DNA of 64,000 nt from positions 736,001 to 800,000 of the forward strand of contig CM000430.1 in NCBI GenBank assembly GCA_000165345.1, read 5' to 3'. The translations under genes and the position numbers were made by a program. This document shows, one piece after another, positions 5,383 to 64,000 of this stretch. The notes under the pieces are model-generated. The model was given only the letters and a program-made list of their open reading frames with translations, was not told where the DNA came from and ran no database searches. Every line of letters begins with the position of its first letter. Position 1 is the first letter of the stretch.

Positions 5383-5392
5383 CTATACCGGT
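5383..5392. promoter_or_regulatory. CTATACCGGT motif
   Basis: Member of the recurrent YTATACCGGY intergenic motif family (see findings). Confidence 0.35.
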
Positions 5393-5429
5393 CTTGAGAT
5401 TCCCCACAGTCAAAACTGCATCACGTGCA

Positions 5430-5447
5430 TTTGGCGCCGGCGGGCAA
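5430..5447. promoter_or_regulatory. GC-rich E2F-like element TTTGGCGCCGGCGGGCAA, next to a CACGTG E-box at 5423-5428
   Basis: This is one of the only GC islands in an 800-bp AT-rich divergent promoter. Confidence 0.3.
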
Positions 5448-5882
5448 TGCATTATTTTATATTTTGTAAAATATAAAGTCATGTATATAAAAGACCGCAT
5501 GAAGGATAATTTAATTAATAAAAAGAAAATCAATTAGTGACTGTTTAGGAATGAAAAAGAAAAAAAGTTAATAAAAGAAAATAATATAGGAAAAGTATTT
5601 GAATAAAGACAAAAATTTGGTGGTTTTGTTGAGGTGAATAAGAAAAGGAGAGAGGAGTGGGTGGATGGGGGGGAGGAAGGAAAATAACATGCAAGCACCC
5701 ATTATTTAAATAGGAAAAGCTAGAAAAAGAGATAAATTAAGTAAACACAAAAATCTACAGTTTTCTATCTTAATTGTTAATATTTTCTTTTAGTAAATTT
5801 ATATCTTCTCTTCTTTCGTAATAATATGTAAACTATTTATGTTTTTTTTTTTTTCTGAATATAAAATGTTTTTACAAGAACT

Positions 5883-5896
5883 TTTGGCGGGAAATC
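5883..5896. promoter_or_regulatory. E2F-like site TTTTGGCGGGAAAT
   Basis: Matches the classical TTTGGCGGGAAA consensus. It lies about 150 bp upstream of the SF3B2 ATG in the divergent GT90/SF3B2 promoter. Confidence 0.4.
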
Positions 5897-6042
5897 ATGT
5901 AAAGCTAAATTATTATTATAGTTAATGATTGAATGTTCCATTAGGAGTAGGAATGGGATTGTTTAAATATTAAATATATATAAATATTTGAATAAATAAA
6001 AAGAGTGTAGAAGAACCAAAATATAATTATGAATAAGAAGAT

Positions 6043-59796: not shown

Positions 59797-60312
59797 CTAA
59801 AAGCGTTTTAAGAGGGAAGAAAAAAGTTTCAGTTAATTTCGAATTTTTTGTTTTTTCGAAGAATCTTAATTACGGAATATAACATAAATATGTTATAAAA
59901 GAAATATTTTTCTTTCTTTACGCTTGATATAATTACAACATTTAATTCTTTATTATATTTAATTCATCCAAATATGTTATTATAAATGGCAATTGCAAAC
60001 CTGCCTTGCTTGCATGCAATACATTACATGAATTTTGCAATACAGTAACAGCAGTGTATTAAGTTTGCTTGCATGCAAATTGAAAATGCTAAAGTGGATT
60101 TGTTTTGACCACTGTACTATTTTTATGCATGCAATTTTATTAATGCCACGTGTATATATTACACGTAATTAATATCTGGAGAATAAATGAATACCAAATA
60201 ACTAAATATAGTATTTTTCATCAAGGTAAAAATAATGGTTCATACAAATATATTAAACTAATATATTTGCATGAATATTTATTTCAAACCGTATATGATT
60301 TCTTCTCGACAA

Positions 60313-63183
60313 TTAAGTAAACTTACCTTGTTCAGCCAAAATAACGTCATTATATCTATCAATCAATTTAACCTTTCCCAAAGAAGTTCCAATTAAGATT
60401 ATATCTGACCTATCAGAGTGAAATTCAAACTGCCTAGTATCTTGCGAACTCTGTAATAATGTGAATTTATATTGATTTTTAATTATGAGATCTTCTTTAA
60501 AACTGTCATCAAGCCTAGTATTTTCTGAATTTGAGATGGAGTCGAAATACAAAGTGTTTTGAATAGGTTGTGAATCAAAGCTTAAAAATCTTGAGCTAAT
60601 ATCACCATAAAATTTCCCAACTATTAAGTCTTTGTAAATTTCGTTTGTATTTTTTATTAAGCTTTTTAAACAAAAATTATCTTTTGATTCAGGATTTTGT
60701 AATGAAATATCGCCAGAGTATTCTTTATGATCTTTAAACCTATTTAGTTCTCTATATAAAGTGATTATTCTACACTTTGAAAACTTCACAGTAGAATTTA
60801 ACATGTGGCCTTCCAATGATGAGAATGATGAAAATGAAGGCATTGTTGACATATTTGAAATACCTGAAAAGGATCTCTGTATTATAAATTGATTCTCAAG
60901 TGATTCATTCGTATTGTCAATATTACTTTTCAATACAAAATCATGCTCTTCTTCAACTTTTATTGGCAAAAAACTGATTTTTGACAATCTTAAACCATCT
61001 GAAGACCAGCTAATAGGAATTATAAATTCTTTATGTATCTTAAACTGTTCTTTAAGATCCTCATAAATTTCTTCCGTTCCAATTTGTTTAATTTCCGCTT
61101 TAATTTTCTCACCATTAACAAAAAAGAAATTCTTTGATAAGCTACCGAGTAGATCCCCAGAATAAGACTTTAATTTACTCAAAATCTTTTCATTTTTTGT
61201 CAAATTCTCTCCATAAACTTTTTTCCCCATCTCCTTCTCCTGCAAAAATATCTCGCTACTATCTTCATTTTCCTCATTTTCGTAATCGCTCAGCTTCCTC
61301 CATCCTATGCCTTTTAATATGAAGATATTATAACAATGTTCATCTTTAAAACCATCACAAATAACTCCGTCCAAGTTTGCTTTTATCAAATAAATTAAAT
61401 CGGCCATACACGCTTCTTCTTTATTTAAAGTTATATATCTTCTATTAATCTGTCTCTCTAAGCCTTGAGGATTCTGAATTATATTTAATATTAACTCCAA
61501 ATTAGCTTTGGGAGCAATACTAAGAGGTAAATTATCACTTGAAAGTGAAGAATTTTGCAATGAAGAGAATATACCCGAATTAAAATTCCTTATGTCTTGT
61601 AAATTTGATCTATTAGGATTGTAATACCAAGTACATCCCAAGAGAGTCTTTGGATATTCACACCAACATGAGTAACTTTGATCATTATCGAATGCTGAGT
61701 CTTGCAAGTTAATACTAGTTGCAAACATATTAAATATTATAGAATTTGAACATAACATTTTAAAATACTGTCTTATATTCTGAAACTCCAAATTACATGT
61801 TCTATTAATTACTGAACATGGGGTTGTGCAATTTACCGGACTATGAGTTAAATTCATATTTGAATAGTAGTCATTAACAGCTCCAAATCTAATCTCGCCT
61901 TTTACACCCTTTTGATCTTTATGCATCTGGCTCAACACCTCAGAGAAAAGTTGAAAACCCTCATTGTTTGGAATTCCCACTTGTTTAAATGCTGAAATAG
62001 ATCTTGGAGTTAAGGATGTTGTCCAGTTTGGGTTGCTGGCGTAAGAAATAAATGCATTAGCTATTGTGACAAACTCTATGGAACTTGAAGCTACTTTATA
62101 CATGATCCCACCATCATCTCTATCTTCCTCCTCTTCCTCTATCTTCTCCTCTTCCAGTATCCCTAAATTTGTTCCTTCCATCTTTGACTGAGTTATGATC
62201 TTTGAATAATTACCTAGGAACGACTTCCTATGAATATTTATTGGAAGTTGTAGCTTTTTGCTCCCCAGTAAATTGTCATTATCACATTTAGGATTAGGTA
62301 TATCGACTACATTTACCATATGTACAAGCTCCTTTGGTAGCTCTAAAAGATATCTACCATGTGAATTAGGCTCAGAGCTAATAATATTCCCAATTCGCCC
62401 TCCTATCAAAATCTCTCGAATCCTAATTGGACATGGAAGCCGAATAAAATGTCTGCATGTATGTAAAGTTGATAAATACTTAATCTTCTTTGCAAAATCA
62501 AAAATTCGACTAATTACTGTATCCTCCATATCTTGATATATCTTTGGGTCAATCTTAACTGAAGTTATTGGAGTCATTATATCTATGCACGTACCAATCC
62601 TTAACCAGAAAATATGATTTGGATCTTCATTTAGTATATTCATGTAAAATACCAACCTCCAATTCACTAATTCTGTTGCAAGTGAAATATCCAATCTTAT
62701 ATTTTCCAATTCGCTATTATCCAACTCTGATACTGGCTTTTTTCCTTGATTTAATGTTATTTTATGATTGTTCTCATCCCACCAATTGTACTCCAATATC
62801 TTAAGAAAGTTATCCTCGTTCCCAAACTCTATAGAGTAAGCTTCTACTTCCTCTATAGGCATATGCGTATTTCTCTTACTATTTAGATTTTTTATTATGT
62901 TATTCCCATTTCTTTCAAACCGATAATCTCCCAAATCATCCCTTTTATTAGCTGGAATTTGTTGAGCATTTTCAAAACACCATTTTTTCCCTTTTTTGTT
63001 TTGTACAAAACCAAATTTATGGCAGTAGAATCTCCATATTATTGGGTTATTGTGTATTGTTAAATATGCAGAATTGCATGTTAAACTCAGACTAATTGTA
63101 TCTTTTGGTTCCAAAAAATAACATATTCCCATAATTATCTCCTTAGGAATTTTAAGAAGTGTTGGAGCTATTGCAAAAGCCAT
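60313..63183 (-). CDS. F-box domain protein (956 aa)
   Basis: ATG at 63181-63183. The N-terminal IPKEIIMGICYFLEPKDTISLSLTCNSAYLTIHNNPIIWR fits the F-box consensus (LPxEIL..I...L...DL.....VCK.W..L......LW). The rest has no recognised domain. Confidence 0.6.
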   Translation of the reverse strand: MAFAIAPTLLKIPKEIIMGICYFLEPKDTISLSLTCNSAYLTIHNNPIIWRFYCHKFGFVQNKKGKKWCFENAQQIPANKRDDLGDYRFERNGNNIIKNLNSKRNTHMPIEEVEAYSIEFGNEDNFLKILEYNWWDENNHKITLNQGKKPVSELDNSELENIRLDISLATELVNWRLVFYMNILNEDPNHIFWLRIGTCIDIMTPITSVKIDPKIYQDMEDTVISRIFDFAKKIKYLSTLHTCRHFIRLPCPIRIREILIGGRIGNIISSEPNSHGRYLLELPKELVHMVNVVDIPNPKCDNDNLLGSKKLQLPINIHRKSFLGNYSKIITQSKMEGTNLGILEEEKIEEEEEDRDDGGIMYKVASSSIEFVTIANAFISYASNPNWTTSLTPRSISAFKQVGIPNNEGFQLFSEVLSQMHKDQKGVKGEIRFGAVNDYYSNMNLTHSPVNCTTPCSVINRTCNLEFQNIRQYFKMLCSNSIIFNMFATSINLQDSAFDNDQSYSCWCEYPKTLLGCTWYYNPNRSNLQDIRNFNSGIFSSLQNSSLSSDNLPLSIAPKANLELILNIIQNPQGLERQINRRYITLNKEEACMADLIYLIKANLDGVICDGFKDEHCYNIFILKGIGWRKLSDYENEENEDSSEIFLQEKEMGKKVYGENLTKNEKILSKLKSYSGDLLGSLSKNFFFVNGEKIKAEIKQIGTEEIYEDLKEQFKIHKEFIIPISWSSDGLRLSKISFLPIKVEEEHDFVLKSNIDNTNESLENQFIIQRSFSGISNMSTMPSFSSFSSLEGHMLNSTVKFSKCRIITLYRELNRFKDHKEYSGDISLQNPESKDNFCLKSLIKNTNEIYKDLIVGKFYGDISSRFLSFDSQPIQNTLYFDSISNSENTRLDDSFKEDLIIKNQYKFTLLQSSQDTRQFEFHSDRSDIILIGTSLGKVKLIDRYNDVILAEQGKFT

Positions 63184-63874
63184 TTTTATTTTATATTCTT
63201 TTTTCTCCTTTTCTTCAATTTCTTCCTTTTCTCTCTATTTCATCTTTATTATCCTTTTATATGTGATATTTGGTATTCTGTGAGGTTAATACTTTCAATT
63301 TCTGATATTATATTTTTGTTTTCTTTTCGTCTTATATATATATGGTCTCGAATTCAGTTATTCCTGAATAAAGCAATATAAATTAATAATTTCTTTATTT
63401 TAGTTCTTAAATGAAGAAGAAAGGAGAGACTAGGATAAACAAATTGTTTATTACTTTACTATTATTTCCAAGGCTTATTTAAAGTTTTCCGCCCCTTTTT
63501 TTTTTGTTAAGACTAGTACATATTTACAGAAACCTATTAAGATAACAAACTCAACTATTTTTGCATGAGTTTATCGTCAATTAAATCAATTCCGAGCAAA
63601 AATCAAGATGCATGCATGTAATACATGCATTGCATTACAAACATTGCATGCATCTTGTATTTGCTGCATTTCTAATCAATTGATAATTATTTATGCAAAA
63701 AAAAATGTTAAAATATTCAACAAATATTAAAACTAATTAGTATCAAATATTTTCTAAAATATATTAGTTTATAAAAAGTGATTTTCTTATTTTTAAAAAA
63801 ACCAATTCTTTTCAACACATTTTTGCCTAATAATTCTTAACACAAAAAAAATAACGCGCTAACTCGAGAAATTG

Positions 63875-63885
63875 AGCGCCAAGTA
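63875..63885. promoter_or_regulatory. E2F-like GAGCGCCAAGT
   Basis: Upstream of the F-box gene. ATACCGGCAC follows at 63931-63940 and GGGGGCGG at 63951. Confidence 0.3.
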
Positions 63886-64000
63886 TTAATAATTGTATTA
63901 TTAATCATGATAAATATTATTAATAATTACATACCGGCACAAGTAGTATGGGGGCGGAAGAAGAGGAAAAAAAATAAAAAAAAATGAGGCTGAGGGGAAA

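What the first reader, a model, noticed from the sequence alone, without database searches (positions are those of the whole stretch)
5383..63940. Recurrent YTATACCGGY motif confined to 5' intergenic regions, often adjacent to E2F-like GGCGCCAAG
CCGG is rare in this AT-rich DNA, yet ATACCGG occurs seven times in six different promoter regions:
- 5383-5392 CTATACCGGT.
- 12314-12323 ATACCGGTAT.
- 23864-23875 CTATACCGGCAC with an inverted mate CCGGTATAG at 23907-23915.
- 27931-27939 CCGGTATAG.
- 53462-53470 ATACCGGTG.
- 63931-63940 ATACCGGCAC.
No clean copy lies in a 3' intergenic region. In three cases it sits within 0-40 bp of a GGCGCC(C)AAG E2F-like site, suggesting a composite promoter module. 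I cannot assign it to a known factor. It may be a lineage-specific core-promoter or cell-cycle element.
Basis: seen in the sequence. Interest (0 to 1): 0.6.

Follow-up and report, generated by a model that had tools for sequence, protein, structure and literature searches.

The report
Conserved ATACCGG promoter motif in Cryptosporidium
The 7-base word ATACCGG occurs about 25 times more often than chance in the gene-control regions of this Cryptosporidium parvum chromosome segment and sits at the same promoter positions in related species, so it is most likely the binding site of a transcription factor that has not been identified.

Summary
The window is C. parvum Iowa II chromosome 2, roughly genes 2_3490 to 2_3620.

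**Enrichment.** ATACCGG occurs 8 times (7 loci) in 12.2 kb of non-coding DNA, against 0.24-0.37 expected. This survives correction for all 7-mers. In 51.8 kb of coding DNA it occurs twice, which is no excess. Seven of the 8 non-coding CCGG sites carry the ATA flank.

**Conservation.** Six of the 7 loci keep the core (A)TACCGG in an orthologous promoter of at least one of C. meleagridis, C. ubiquitum, C. canis or C. felis. It often appears as an invariant island beside conserved TGCATGCA and GGCGCC sites. A site predicted from C. ubiquitum and C. canis was then found in C. parvum 8.4 kb beyond the window. The loci sampled from C. xiaoi and C. andersoni have no non-coding ATACCGG.

**Interpretation.** This is most likely a binding site for an unassigned factor in promoter cores, working alongside E2F/DP and ApiAP2 sites. 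It is not a member of either of those motif families.

**What does not hold up.**
- The "absent from 3' regions" argument has no power, because only 1.1 kb is purely 3'.
- The cell-cycle idea was not tested.

**Novelty.** None of the Cryptosporidium motif catalogues I could read lists it. The same palindrome (TACCGGTA / ATACCGGTAT) is a predicted promoter motif in oomycetes. A genome-wide test could not be run.

The parts
5385..5391 (+). Site A: ctATACCGGt. It lies in the divergent intergenic region between the 704-aa gene (ATG at 5242, 143 bp away) and the SF3b2/Cus1 gene (ATG at 6043). GGCGCC lies 41 bp to the right, at 5433-5438.
   Evidence: This is the only window site with no counterpart in the orthologous intergenic regions examined: no TACCGG in C. 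ubiquitum, C. felis or C. xiaoi.
12313..12322 (.). Site B: the perfect 10-bp palindrome ATACCGGTAT. It lies in the 1.7-kb divergent intergenic region between gene 9761-11386(-) and the PHD-finger gene (ATG at 13112).
   Evidence: The site is identical (ATACCGGTAT) in C. ubiquitum at L003:15511-15520, and reads TTACCGGTAA in C. felis. Conserved flanking elements are AATTGTCCACATT (12274-12288) and TGCATGCA (12345-12352).
23866..23872 (+). Site C: ctATACCGGc. This is the left arm of an inverted pair in the divergent Nsp1 / PrsW promoter region.
   Evidence: It is conserved in C. meleagridis (L001:13727) and in GC-rich C. canis (L009:13541). In C. ubiquitum it is degenerate (TATACCTG).
23906..23912 (-). 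Site D: ctATACCGGa on the minus strand. This is the right arm of the inverted pair, separated from site C by 33 bp. GCCCGCC lies 13 bp away, at 23926-23932.
   Evidence: It is conserved in C. meleagridis and, as GTACCGG, in C. ubiquitum. It is lost in C. canis. At least one arm of the pair is retained in every intestinal-clade species sampled.
27931..27937 (-). Site E: ctATACCGGc on the minus strand. It is 162 bp upstream of the Dus ATG (27769), in sense orientation, and 4 bp from GGCGCC (27921-27926).
   Evidence: C. canis has gATACCGGtttaGGCGCC (L009:9868). C. meleagridis has tgTACCGGtttgaGCGCC. C. ubiquitum has TACATG at the aligned position and TTTACCGGTAAC about 45 bp further upstream.
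53462..53468 (+). Site F: caATACCGGt. It is 226 bp upstream of the annotated ATG (about 53694) of the 1599-aa Xpo1-like gene, in sense orientation. TGCATGCA (53442-53449) lies to its 5' side and TTGGCGCCAA (GGCGCC at 53485-53490) to its 3' side.
   Evidence: An unanchored MAFFT alignment of C. parvum, C. ubiquitum and C. canis shows TGCATGC, AATACCGG and TTGGCGCCAA as invariant islands in otherwise diverged sequence. The distance to the ATG is 226, 192 and 195 bp respectively.
63931..63937 (+). Site G: acATACCGGc. It lies in the divergent intergenic region between the F-box/WD40 gene (ATG at 63183) and the next gene to the right (ATG at about 64421). GGGGGCGGAAG lies 12 bp to its 3' side, at 63950-63960.
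   Evidence: C. canis has cacATACCGGcataag...atggggg at the equivalent distance (L007:9264). C. xiaoi has aaTAACCGGTACCgc at a similar distance (L008:9316). There is no counterpart in C. ubiquitum.
5433..5438 (.). E2F-type site GGCGCC, partner of site A.
27921..27926 (.). E2F-type site GGCGCC(CAAG), directly next to site E.
53485..53490 (.). E2F-type site (TT)GGCGCC(AA), 16 bp to the 3' side of site F. It is invariant in three species.
53442..53449 (.). ApiAP2-type site TGCATGCA, 12 bp to the 5' side of site F. Its core TGCATGC is invariant in three species.
12274..12288 (+). Co-occurring conserved word AATTGTCCACATT (TGTGGACAATT on the minus strand), 25 bp to the 5' side of site B.
   Evidence: The same 11-mer lies 4-5 bp from the ATACCGG site upstream of the subtilase gene in C. 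parvum (L012:776-786), C. ubiquitum and C. canis.

Best explanation
ATACCGG, with wider consensus (C/A)T-ATACCGG-(T/C) and full palindromic form ATACCGGTAT, is a cis-regulatory element: the binding site of a sequence-specific DNA-binding protein that has not been assigned.

- **Where it sits.** It lies in the regulatory core of RNA polymerase II promoters in C. parvum and its close relatives, within tens of base pairs of E2F/DP sites (GGCGCC, GGCGGG) and often ApiAP2 sites (TGCATGCA).
- **How it probably acts (inferred).** The factor binds one strong half-site, or a full palindrome as a dimer. It acts in either orientation and at variable distance from the gene, in combination with E2F/DP and ApiAP2 factors, to set promoter activity or keep the promoter accessible.
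- **What is shown.** Over-representation restricted to non-coding DNA, near-absence of one-mismatch variants, clustering with known sites, and retention at orthologous promoter positions across species whose flanking sequence has diverged.
- **What is inferred.** That a protein binds it, and which protein. The candidate pools are the roughly nine Myb/SANT proteins, the ApiAP2 domains for which protein-binding microarrays gave no motif, and the C2H2 zinc fingers.
For: 1. **Enrichment only outside genes.** Non-coding DNA has 8 hits against 0.24-0.37 expected (P down to 2e-10, significant after correction for all 7-mers). Coding DNA has 2 against 0.5-2.0. Seven of 8 non-coding CCGG sites carry the ATA flank; with the extra 9.2 kb of C. 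parvum the count is 8 of 9.
2. **Found without prior choice.** An unbiased scan of all 7-mers puts it directly behind the known TGCATGCA words and ahead of GGCGGGC.
3. **High specificity.** There are 9 exact strand instances but only about 5 independent one-mismatch variants in 15 kb of non-coding DNA.
4. **Phylogenetic footprints.** Sites B to G keep (A)TACCGG in at least one of C. meleagridis, ubiquitum, canis or felis while their flanks diverge. All 5 C. parvum motif-bearing intergenic regions that have a C. canis counterpart contain ATACCGG there too. The background rate for other 7-mers with four G/C bases is 20.5%. In GC-rich C. canis, 8 of 29 non-coding CCGG sites have the ATA flank, against 7 of 145 coding sites.
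5. **Out-of-sample prediction.** A conserved CCGGTATA upstream of the subtilase gene in C. ubiquitum and C. canis (L006:818, L007:938) predicted a C. parvum site outside the window. It was found at L012:762, 329 bp upstream of the ATG.
6. **Clustering with known sites.** Median distance to an E2F-like site is 53 bp, against 285 bp for random positions (P = 0.0016). Median distance to TGCATGC is 113 bp against 320 bp (P = 0.035).
7. **Promoter coverage.** It occurs in all 5 divergent intergenic regions and in 2 of 6 tandem ones across the 73 kb of C. parvum examined (gene maps, sites).
8. **Turnover typical of binding sites.** One arm of the C/D pair is lost in C. ubiquitum and the other in C. 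canis. The Dus site has shifted in C. ubiquitum.
9. **Precedent.** The same palindrome is a predicted, evolutionarily conserved promoter motif in oomycetes.
Against: - No binding, accessibility or expression data were available, so 'a protein binds it' remains an inference.
- The sample is 73 kb of one chromosome plus syntenic loci. Genome-wide enrichment is untested.
- If the local density held genome-wide, there would be on the order of a thousand sites. It is then odd that MEME, AlignACE and FIRE studies and an ATAC-seq motif analysis did not report it. The density here may be unusually high, or those pipelines may have filtered it out.
- Conservation in C. ubiquitum at the exact 7-mer level (3 of 7) is no better than the background for GC-containing words (24.5%).
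- Site A is not conserved in any other species examined.
- The three C. xiaoi loci and the one C. andersoni locus lack the motif in non-coding DNA.
Confidence: 0.75

Rival explanations
1. It is a core-promoter element that positions transcription initiation, like an initiator or a downstream or upstream core element, and is read by the general transcription machinery rather than by a gene-specific factor.
For: It occurs in 7 of 11 promoter-bearing intergenic regions examined, including all 5 divergent ones. It lies next to the E2F sites that mark accessible 5' ends in sporozoite ATAC-seq. At sites E and F it is in sense orientation, 162-226 bp upstream of the ATG, and that distance is conserved across species (226, 192 and 195 bp).
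Against: In the two tandem intergenic regions where orientation can be read, it is sense at site E and antisense at site H. Distances to the nearest ATG range from 143 to about 930 bp. One site is a perfect palindrome, and one region carries two copies in opposite orientation. Four promoter-bearing regions lack it. No transcription start site data were available to me.
Confidence: 0.1
2. It is an extension or half-site of the E2F/DP element, so that the composite ATACCGG...GGCGCC is read by E2F/DP complexes themselves.
For: It is close to GGCGCC, GGCGGG or GGCGGAA at seven of the nine C. parvum sites. At the Dus promoter the two are separated by 4 bp in C. parvum and 4-5 bp in C. canis and C. 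meleagridis.
Against: Spacing varies from 3 to about 150 bp and the relative order and orientation vary. ATACCGG lacks the [C/G]GCGC[G/C] core that defines E2F sites (PMC3734150). Other E2F-like sites in promoter-bearing intergenic regions have no ATACCGG nearby, for example 9221, 9456 and 30661-30696. Site H has no E2F-like site within its intergenic region and sits next to TGCATGCA instead.
Confidence: 0.05
3. It is a chance or compositional artefact: a word picked out after the fact in AT-rich DNA, or a by-product of CCGG rarity.
For: CCGG as a whole is not significantly enriched in the window (20 against 13.9). The core TACCGG also occurs several times in the giant ORF, in mixed reading frames.
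Against: The enrichment survives Bonferroni correction over all 7-mers and ranks at the top of an unbiased scan. The word is retained at orthologous positions in species with 27% to 55% GC. An independent site was predicted and then found.
Confidence: 0.02
4. The conserved blocks carrying the motif are unannotated small genes or structured RNAs, with the 9-bp inverted repeat CTATACCGG...CCGGTATAG forming a hairpin stem.
For: About 75 bp around sites C and D are unusually conserved. An 85-codon ORF (23719-23976) overlaps them. The arms are perfectly complementary in C. parvum and C. meleagridis.
Against: The ORF is broken by stop codons in C. meleagridis, C. ubiquitum and C. canis. In C. ubiquitum one arm mutates without compensation (TACCGG against CAGGTA), and in C. 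canis the other arm is absent. Rfam finds no RNA family anywhere in the window. The other six sites share nothing beyond the 7-10 bp core.
Confidence: 0.02

Closest known systems
Oomycete promoter palindrome: Phytophthora infestans M94 (TACCGGTA), Plasmopara halstedii streme-5 (ATACCGGTAT), Seidl et al. motif-9 (GTACCGGTA)
   Same: The sequence is identical. Window site B is exactly ATACCGGTAT, and all sites contain the TACCGG half. Both are over-represented upstream of genes, palindromic or half-palindromic, conserved in orthologous promoters of related species, and have no assigned factor (PMC3597505; PMC10031896). M94 has a sister motif M93 (TACATGTA). In C. ubiquitum, TACATG occupies the aligned position of TACCGG in the Dus promoter.
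   Different: The organisms are from a different supergroup branch (stramenopiles versus alveolates), so common descent of the factor is unproven. Most Cryptosporidium copies are half-sites with an invariant ATA flank rather than full palindromes. In oomycetes the motif is linked to germinated-cyst, hyphal and effector genes, and no such link was tested here.
C. parvum E2F/DP sites ([A/T][C/G]GCGC[G/C][A/T]) and ApiAP2 'AP2_1' sites (TGCATGCA)
   Same: These are the same kind of object: short GC-containing words, strongly over-represented in C. parvum non-coding DNA and conserved across species. They are physically clustered with ATACCGG (PMC3734150).
   Different: The sequence is different, with no shared core. 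Those two motifs have experimentally or homology-assigned factors, and ATACCGG has none. ATACCGG is not among the 25 motifs in 11 families of Oberstaller 2013, nor in the 2025 review table.
Yeast general regulatory factor Reb1 site (TTACCCG; tightest-binding and longest-lived variant in that study GTTACCCGGC)
   Same: The core is similar (TTACCCGGC versus ATACC-GGC). The site works in either orientation, is located in promoter nucleosome-free regions often beside poly(dA:dT), and is used at many unrelated genes and at divergent promoters (PMC12305957; GRF papers listed). Poly-A or poly-T runs flank sites A, C and E.
   Different: The match is one base short and not exact. No Reb1-type Myb protein was looked for or shown in Cryptosporidium. 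An effect on nucleosomes is pure analogy. The resemblance is a lead, not a test.
Plant DRE/CRT element (TACCGACAT, core CCGAC) bound by AP2/ERF-domain DREB proteins (from my own knowledge, not checked with the tools)
   Same: It shares TACCG and is read by an AP2-type domain, the fold that dominates apicomplexan transcription factors.
   Different: The sixth base differs (A versus G). None of the specificities quoted in the text of Oberstaller 2014 for C. parvum AP2 domains (TGCAT, CACACA, G-box, GGTGCACC) resembles it.

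Membership tests
Transcription-factor binding site (operational criteria used in comparative promoter studies) | Statistical over-representation in non-coding or upstream DNA relative to a composition-matched background | tested here: met
   8 hits against 0.24-0.37 expected in 12.2 kb of non-coding DNA, with a Bonferroni-corrected P below 5e-5. No excess in coding DNA. Ranked top among non-repetitive 7-mers, after the TGCATGCA words. 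Tested on 64-73 kb only, not genome-wide.
Transcription-factor binding site (operational criteria used in comparative promoter studies) | Retention at orthologous promoter positions while flanking sequence diverges | tested here: met
   Sites B to H are retained in 1-3 other species. C. canis scores 5 of 5 against a 20.5% background. A site predicted from other species was confirmed.
Transcription-factor binding site (operational criteria used in comparative promoter studies) | Demonstrated binding of a protein (EMSA, PBM, ChIP or footprint) | not testable with these tools
   No binding or accessibility data were accessible at coordinate level.
E2F/DP binding site | Central [C/G]GCGC[G/C] or GGCGGG core flanked by T- and A-rich sequence | tested here: not met
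   ATACCGG contains no GCGC or GCGG core. The definition is from PMC3734150.
ApiAP2 AP2_1 motif | TGCAT(GCA) core | tested here: not met
   No TGCAT within the motif. TGCATGCA occurs as a separate neighbouring site.
Published C. parvum over-represented upstream motifs (25 motifs in 11 families) | Match to any listed consensus | tested here: not met
   Compared with Table 1 of PMC3734150. No 'CCGG', 'ACCGG' or 'CCGGT' appears in its text or held supplements; the only 'TACCG' strings there are E2F variants such as GTTACCGCCAAA. Also absent from PMC1779779, PMC4117751, PMC7840661, PMC12246861 and 10.1101/2025.01.17.633476. Figures and logos are not searchable.
Oomycete M94 / streme-5 promoter palindrome | Sequence TACCGGTA / ATACCGGTAT over-represented in promoters | tested here: met
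   Site B is ATACCGGTAT in both C. parvum and C. ubiquitum. TTACCGGTAA occurs in C. felis and in the C. ubiquitum Dus promoter. The other sites are half-sites.
Oomycete M94 / streme-5 promoter palindrome | Recognition by an orthologous trans-acting factor | not testable with these tools
   The factor is unknown in both lineages.
Core-promoter (initiator-type) element | Fixed orientation and narrow distance relative to the transcription start site | tested here: inconclusive
   Both orientations occur in tandem intergenic regions (E sense, H antisense). Distance to the ATG ranges from 143 to about 930 bp. No transcription start site data were available, so distance to the true start is unknown.
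Reb1-type general regulatory factor site | TTACCCG core | tested here: not met
   ATACCGG lacks the third C. The consensus is from PMC12305957.
Reb1-type general regulatory factor site | Creates or marks a nucleosome-depleted region | not testable with these tools

The most novel reading that the evidence does not exclude
ATACCGG(TAT) is the site of an ancient general regulatory factor shared by oomycetes and Cryptosporidium, plausibly a Reb1/DMTF1-like Myb protein. The factor would organise nucleosome-free, often bidirectional promoters together with E2F/DP. On this reading it belongs to a pre-ApiAP2 regulatory layer that Cryptosporidium kept and other apicomplexans lost, in the same way that it kept E2F/DP.
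Probability: 0.1. Interest if true: 0.75.

Novelty: new member of a known kind. Interest (0 to 1): 0.5.

Why it matters
Transcriptional control in Cryptosporidium, a leading cause of childhood diarrhoea, is known only in outline. The known elements are E2F, TGCATGCA, the G-box and a handful of unassigned words. Most Myb proteins, most zinc-finger proteins and several AP2 domains have no known target.

A highly specific 7-mer that is conserved across species and sits beside E2F sites in most promoters of a 73-kb sample gives a concrete bait for identifying one of these factors. Suitable methods are DNA pull-down, PBM or DAP-seq.

It also gives a defined mutation to test in reporter constructs. 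If the density seen here holds genome-wide, this would be one of the most frequent promoter elements of the parasite.

The exact match to an oomycete promoter palindrome also raises a testable evolutionary question about shared regulators across the SAR supergroup.

Tried and rejected
- **RNA families.** An Rfam scan of the whole window at gathering thresholds gave no hit. ARAGORN found no tRNA.
- **Small ORF over sites C and D (23719-23976).** It is not conserved in three other species.
- **Hairpin or cruciform reading of the C/D inverted repeat.** The arms are lost independently and without compensation.
- **5' versus 3' intergenic contrast.** Dropped as uninformative, because only 1,121 bp is purely 3'.
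- **Orientation bias.** In divergent regions any orientation points at a gene. The two informative tandem regions disagree.
- **Codon-context explanation for coding TACCGG.** The copies fall in all three frames (TA CCG G, T ACC GG, TAC CGG). No single codon pair explains them, and they remain unexplained.
- **Order-3 Markov background.** It is partly trained on the motif itself and so inflates the expectation (1.12). Even so, ATACCGG ranks ninth of all 7-mers.
- **Exact 7-mer conservation in C. ubiquitum.** The 3 of 7 score is not above the 24.5% background for GC-containing words. The 6-mer core is retained in 5 of 7.
- **C. felis locus L004.** It is poorly annotated and GC-rich, so its coding and non-coding counts are unreliable.
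- **Literature.** Ten full-text searches and eleven papers gave no Cryptosporidium or apicomplexan report of the motif. Hits for the bare strings were PCR primers.
- **Genome-wide test.** It could not be done.

Full report
**What the window is.** The DNA is AT-rich (about 27% GC) with long uninterrupted ORFs. Nine ORF translations were looked up exactly. Five are identical to C. parvum Iowa II proteins (EAK88669/XP_626537 and others). Locus tags in sister assemblies place the window on chromosome 2, with ORF 28173-29975 as 2g3580 and ORF 60313-63183 as 2g3620. Pfam identifies SF3b2/Cus1, an Nsp1 nucleoporin, a PrsW protease, a Dus tRNA-dihydrouridine synthase and a WD40 protein. Taking ORFs of at least 150 aa as genes, 51.8 kb is coding and 12.15 kb is non-coding.

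**Checking the observation.** ATACCGG occurs 10 times on both strands, against 0.79 expected from dinucleotide-preserving shuffles.
Two coordinates are off by one.
- Two further copies lie inside the 6579-aa ORF.
- In non-coding DNA alone there are 8 strand hits at 7 loci, against 0.24-0.37 expected. P is 2e-10 to 6e-9, and at most 5e-5 after correction for 8192 words.
- Coding DNA has 2 hits against 0.5-2.0 expected.
- Seven of the eight non-coding CCGG tetramers carry an ATA flank (P = 1.5e-6). The eighth is part of GGCGCCGG.
- Because the word was chosen after the sequence was read, I scored every 7-mer in the non-coding DNA. ATACCGG comes directly after low-complexity words and the known GCATGCA/ATGCATG words, and ahead of GGCGGGC.
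- The exact word (9 strand instances once 9.2 kb of extra C. parvum sequence is included) far outnumbers its one-mismatch neighbours (about 5 independent cases). The flanks give (C/A)T-ATACCGG-(T/C).

**The 5'-versus-3' claim.** The gene map gives five divergent, three tandem and five convergent intergenic regions in the window. The convergent, purely 3' regions total only 1,121 bp. Their lack of a copy is what chance would give, since about 0.7 sites would be expected. All five divergent regions carry the motif. With the extra C. parvum sequence, two of six tandem regions do as well.

**Neighbours.** The motif lies closer to E2F-type words than random positions in the same intergenic regions: median 53 bp against 285 bp (P = 0.0016). 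The same holds for TGCATGC: 113 bp against 320 bp (P = 0.035). Spacing is not fixed. It is 4 bp at the Dus promoter, 16 bp at site F, 12 bp at site G (GGGGGCGGAAG), 41 bp at site A and about 150 bp at site B. Sites C and D form an inverted pair bracketed by CCCGCCCC and GCCCGCC.

**Related genomes.** Three homologue searches and twelve contig look-ups returned the syntenic regions of six other species:
- C. meleagridis (L001)
- C. ubiquitum (L002, L003, L006)
- C. felis (L004)
- C. canis (L007, L009)
- C. xiaoi (L005, L008, L010)
- C. andersoni (L011)

A further look-up returned a second C. parvum strain that extends 9.2 kb beyond the window (L012).

Site by site, the results are as follows:

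| Site | Window position | Status in other species |
|---|---|---|
| B | 12313 | ATACCGGTAT identical in C. ubiquitum; TTACCGGTAA in C. felis |
| C | 23866 | Kept in C. meleagridis and C. canis |
| D | 23906 | Kept in C. meleagridis and C. ubiquitum, so each species keeps at least one arm of the pair |
| E | 27931 | Kept next to GGCGCC in C. canis; GTACCGG in C. meleagridis; displaced about 45 bp in C. ubiquitum |
| F | 53462 | Kept in C. ubiquitum and C. canis |
| G | 63931 | Kept in C. canis |
| A | 5385 | No counterpart found |

An unanchored MAFFT alignment of the site F promoter shows TGCATGC, AATACCGG and TTGGCGCCAA as invariant islands in otherwise poorly conserved sequence. They lie 192-226 bp from the ATG in all three species. 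This holds even though C. canis is 47-55% GC and C. parvum is 27%.

As a control, other C. parvum 7-mers with four G/C bases reappear in the orthologous C. canis intergenic region 20.5% of the time. ATACCGG reappears 5 times out of 5. In C. ubiquitum the exact 7-mer (3 of 7) does not beat the background of 24.5%, although the 6-mer core is present in 5 of 7. In C. canis, 8 of 29 non-coding CCGG sites have the ATA flank, against 7 of 145 coding ones.

**A prediction that held.** C. ubiquitum and C. canis share a CCGGTATA about 300 bp upstream of a subtilase gene that lies outside the window. I predicted the same site in C. parvum and spent the last look-up on it. L012:762 reads CCGGTATA, 329 bp upstream of the orthologous gene. 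The alignment places it next to a conserved CAATTGTCCACATTAAAA block and TGCATGCA sites.

**Distribution across the genus.** The three C. xiaoi loci (about 60 kb after removing overlap) contain no non-coding ATACCGG. They contain one TACCGG at a position similar to site G. The C. andersoni locus (24 kb) contains no TACCGG at all. Within this limited sample, the element looks like a feature of the intestinal clade around C. parvum.

**What it is not.**
- Rfam finds nothing in the window.
- The 85-codon ORF across sites C and D is interrupted in other species.
- The inverted repeat does not co-vary between species.
- The motif has no GCGC/GCGG core and no TGCAT core, so it is neither an E2F site nor an AP2_1 site.
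- It matches none of the 25 published C. parvum upstream motifs.
- It matches none of the AP2-domain specificities quoted in the text: TGCAT, CACACA, G-box and GGTGCACC.
- The strings CCGG, TACCG and CGGTA are absent from the text of the six key Cryptosporidium regulation papers. In the held supplements of Oberstaller 2013, TACCG appears only inside E2F variants such as GTTACCGCCAAA. Logos shown only in figures could not be searched.

**Closest precedent.** A full-text search found the same palindrome as a predicted promoter element in oomycetes. These are M94 TACCGGTA in Phytophthora infestans, streme-5 ATACCGGTAT in Plasmopara halstedii, and motif-9 GTACCGGTA of Seidl et al.. The P. infestans motif is conserved among Phytophthora species and paired with a sister palindrome, M93 TACATGTA. 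No factor is assigned there either. The yeast Reb1 site (GTTACCCGGC) and, from my own knowledge, the plant DRE (TACCGAC) are looser resemblances. They point to Myb-type and AP2-type readers respectively. These are leads, not tests.

**Most likely mechanism.** The motif is a binding site for a sequence-specific factor in the promoter regulatory core. It acts in either orientation and alongside E2F/DP and ApiAP2 sites (confidence 0.75).
- Shown: enrichment, specificity, clustering with known sites, conservation and a confirmed prediction.
- Inferred: protein binding and the identity of the factor.

A core-promoter role (0.10) cannot be excluded without start-site maps. Mixed orientation and variable distance to the ATG argue against it. 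The E2F-extension, chance and RNA or small-ORF readings are each at most 0.05.

**Limits.** The evidence comes from one 73-kb chromosomal neighbourhood and its orthologues. If the local density (about 0.5 sites per kb of non-coding DNA) were genome-wide, earlier motif-discovery studies might have been expected to see it. Either this neighbourhood is unusually rich in the motif or those pipelines missed or filtered it. The whole-genome count is the first thing to do.

**Verdict.** This is a real, conserved promoter element that appears to be undescribed for Cryptosporidium. It is a new member of a known kind, of moderate interest (0.5). There is a roughly 10% chance that it marks an ancient regulator shared with oomycetes.

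Noticed in passing
window 12274-12288 (+); L012:776-786, L006:831-841, L007:951-961, L003:15476-15486: A second conserved word, AATTGTCCACATT (TGTGGACAATT on the opposite strand), occurs exactly at only two loci. Both lie beside ATACCGG: 25 bp from site B and 4-5 bp from the subtilase-promoter site. It is invariant in C. parvum, C. ubiquitum and C. canis. It fits the unassigned motif A[T/A]G[T/A]GGA.A that Oberstaller 2013 reported upstream of class II oocyst-wall-protein genes. A related AAATTGTCTC lies between sites C and D.
   Followed up: partly
window 39052, 42972, 46374-46382, 47119-47126, 50820-50831 (all inside ORF 33013-52752, minus strand): The 6-mer TACCGG / CCGGTA occurs at five loci inside the 6579-aa gene, where scaling the window-wide shuffle expectation gives roughly 0.7. 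The copies fall in mixed reading frames and often use the CCG proline codon (for example ATA CCG GTA CCG GAT). The 50820 copy (CCGGTACCGG) is identical in C. ubiquitum (L006:22064-22073). These could be intragenic or antisense promoter sites, or chance.
   Followed up: partly
window 176-2356 (+): By gene order counted back from 2g3580, this 726-aa ORF should be cgd2_3490. That gene is the ApiAP2 factor shown to bind TGCATGCA and recently implicated in macrogamont differentiation. Its syntenic counterpart in C. xiaoi (L005:4972-7422) has a Pfam AP2 hit. The window ORF itself gave no Pfam hit at E of 0.001 or better.
   Followed up: partly
window 23795-23945; alignment A1: An unusually conserved block lies in the Nsp1/PrsW divergent region across C. 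parvum, C. meleagridis and C. ubiquitum. It reads GGCGGGCA...TACCGGA.AATAT.A.ATTGTCTC.TA.ATTACGTGGTGC.GGTATA. It includes an ACGTGG element that also recurs as ACACGTGT near site B (12239-12246). It is not coding and matches no Rfam family.
   Followed up: partly
L002:9872-9877 (aligned to window 27932-27937); L008 and L011 upstream regions of the Xpo1-like gene: Where TACCGG is missing, TACATG is found. It occupies the aligned Dus-promoter position in C. ubiquitum. It also lies 21-37 bp upstream of an E2F-like (T)TACCGCC in C. xiaoi and C. andersoni. This echoes the M93 (TACATGTA) / M94 (TACCGGTA) pair of Phytophthora. However, TACATG is common in AT-rich DNA and overlaps AP2_1-like words, so this may be coincidence.
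   Followed up: no
window 29976-33012: A 3-kb stretch has no ORF of 150 aa or more and no called gene in C. meleagridis, C. ubiquitum or C. xiaoi either. It carries a cluster of overlapping E2F-like words at 30661-30696, further E2F-like sites at 32122 and 32621, and TGCATGCA at 32717. It has no ATACCGG. It may hold an unannotated non-coding transcript.
   Followed up: no
window 58592-63183 (-): The WD40 ORF (58592-59719) and the F-box ORF (60313-63183) are annotated as one gene of about 1350 aa with an intron in some assemblies (for example QOY42867, and in C. ubiquitum and C. canis). In others they are two genes (Iowa II and the HLJ strain).
   Followed up: no
L012:11023-11030 (approximately window 62157): The second C. 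parvum strain (assembly GCA_048859185.1) has an extra ATACCGG inside the F-box gene. The window sequence lacks it, so this is a strain polymorphism that creates the word in coding DNA.
   Followed up: no
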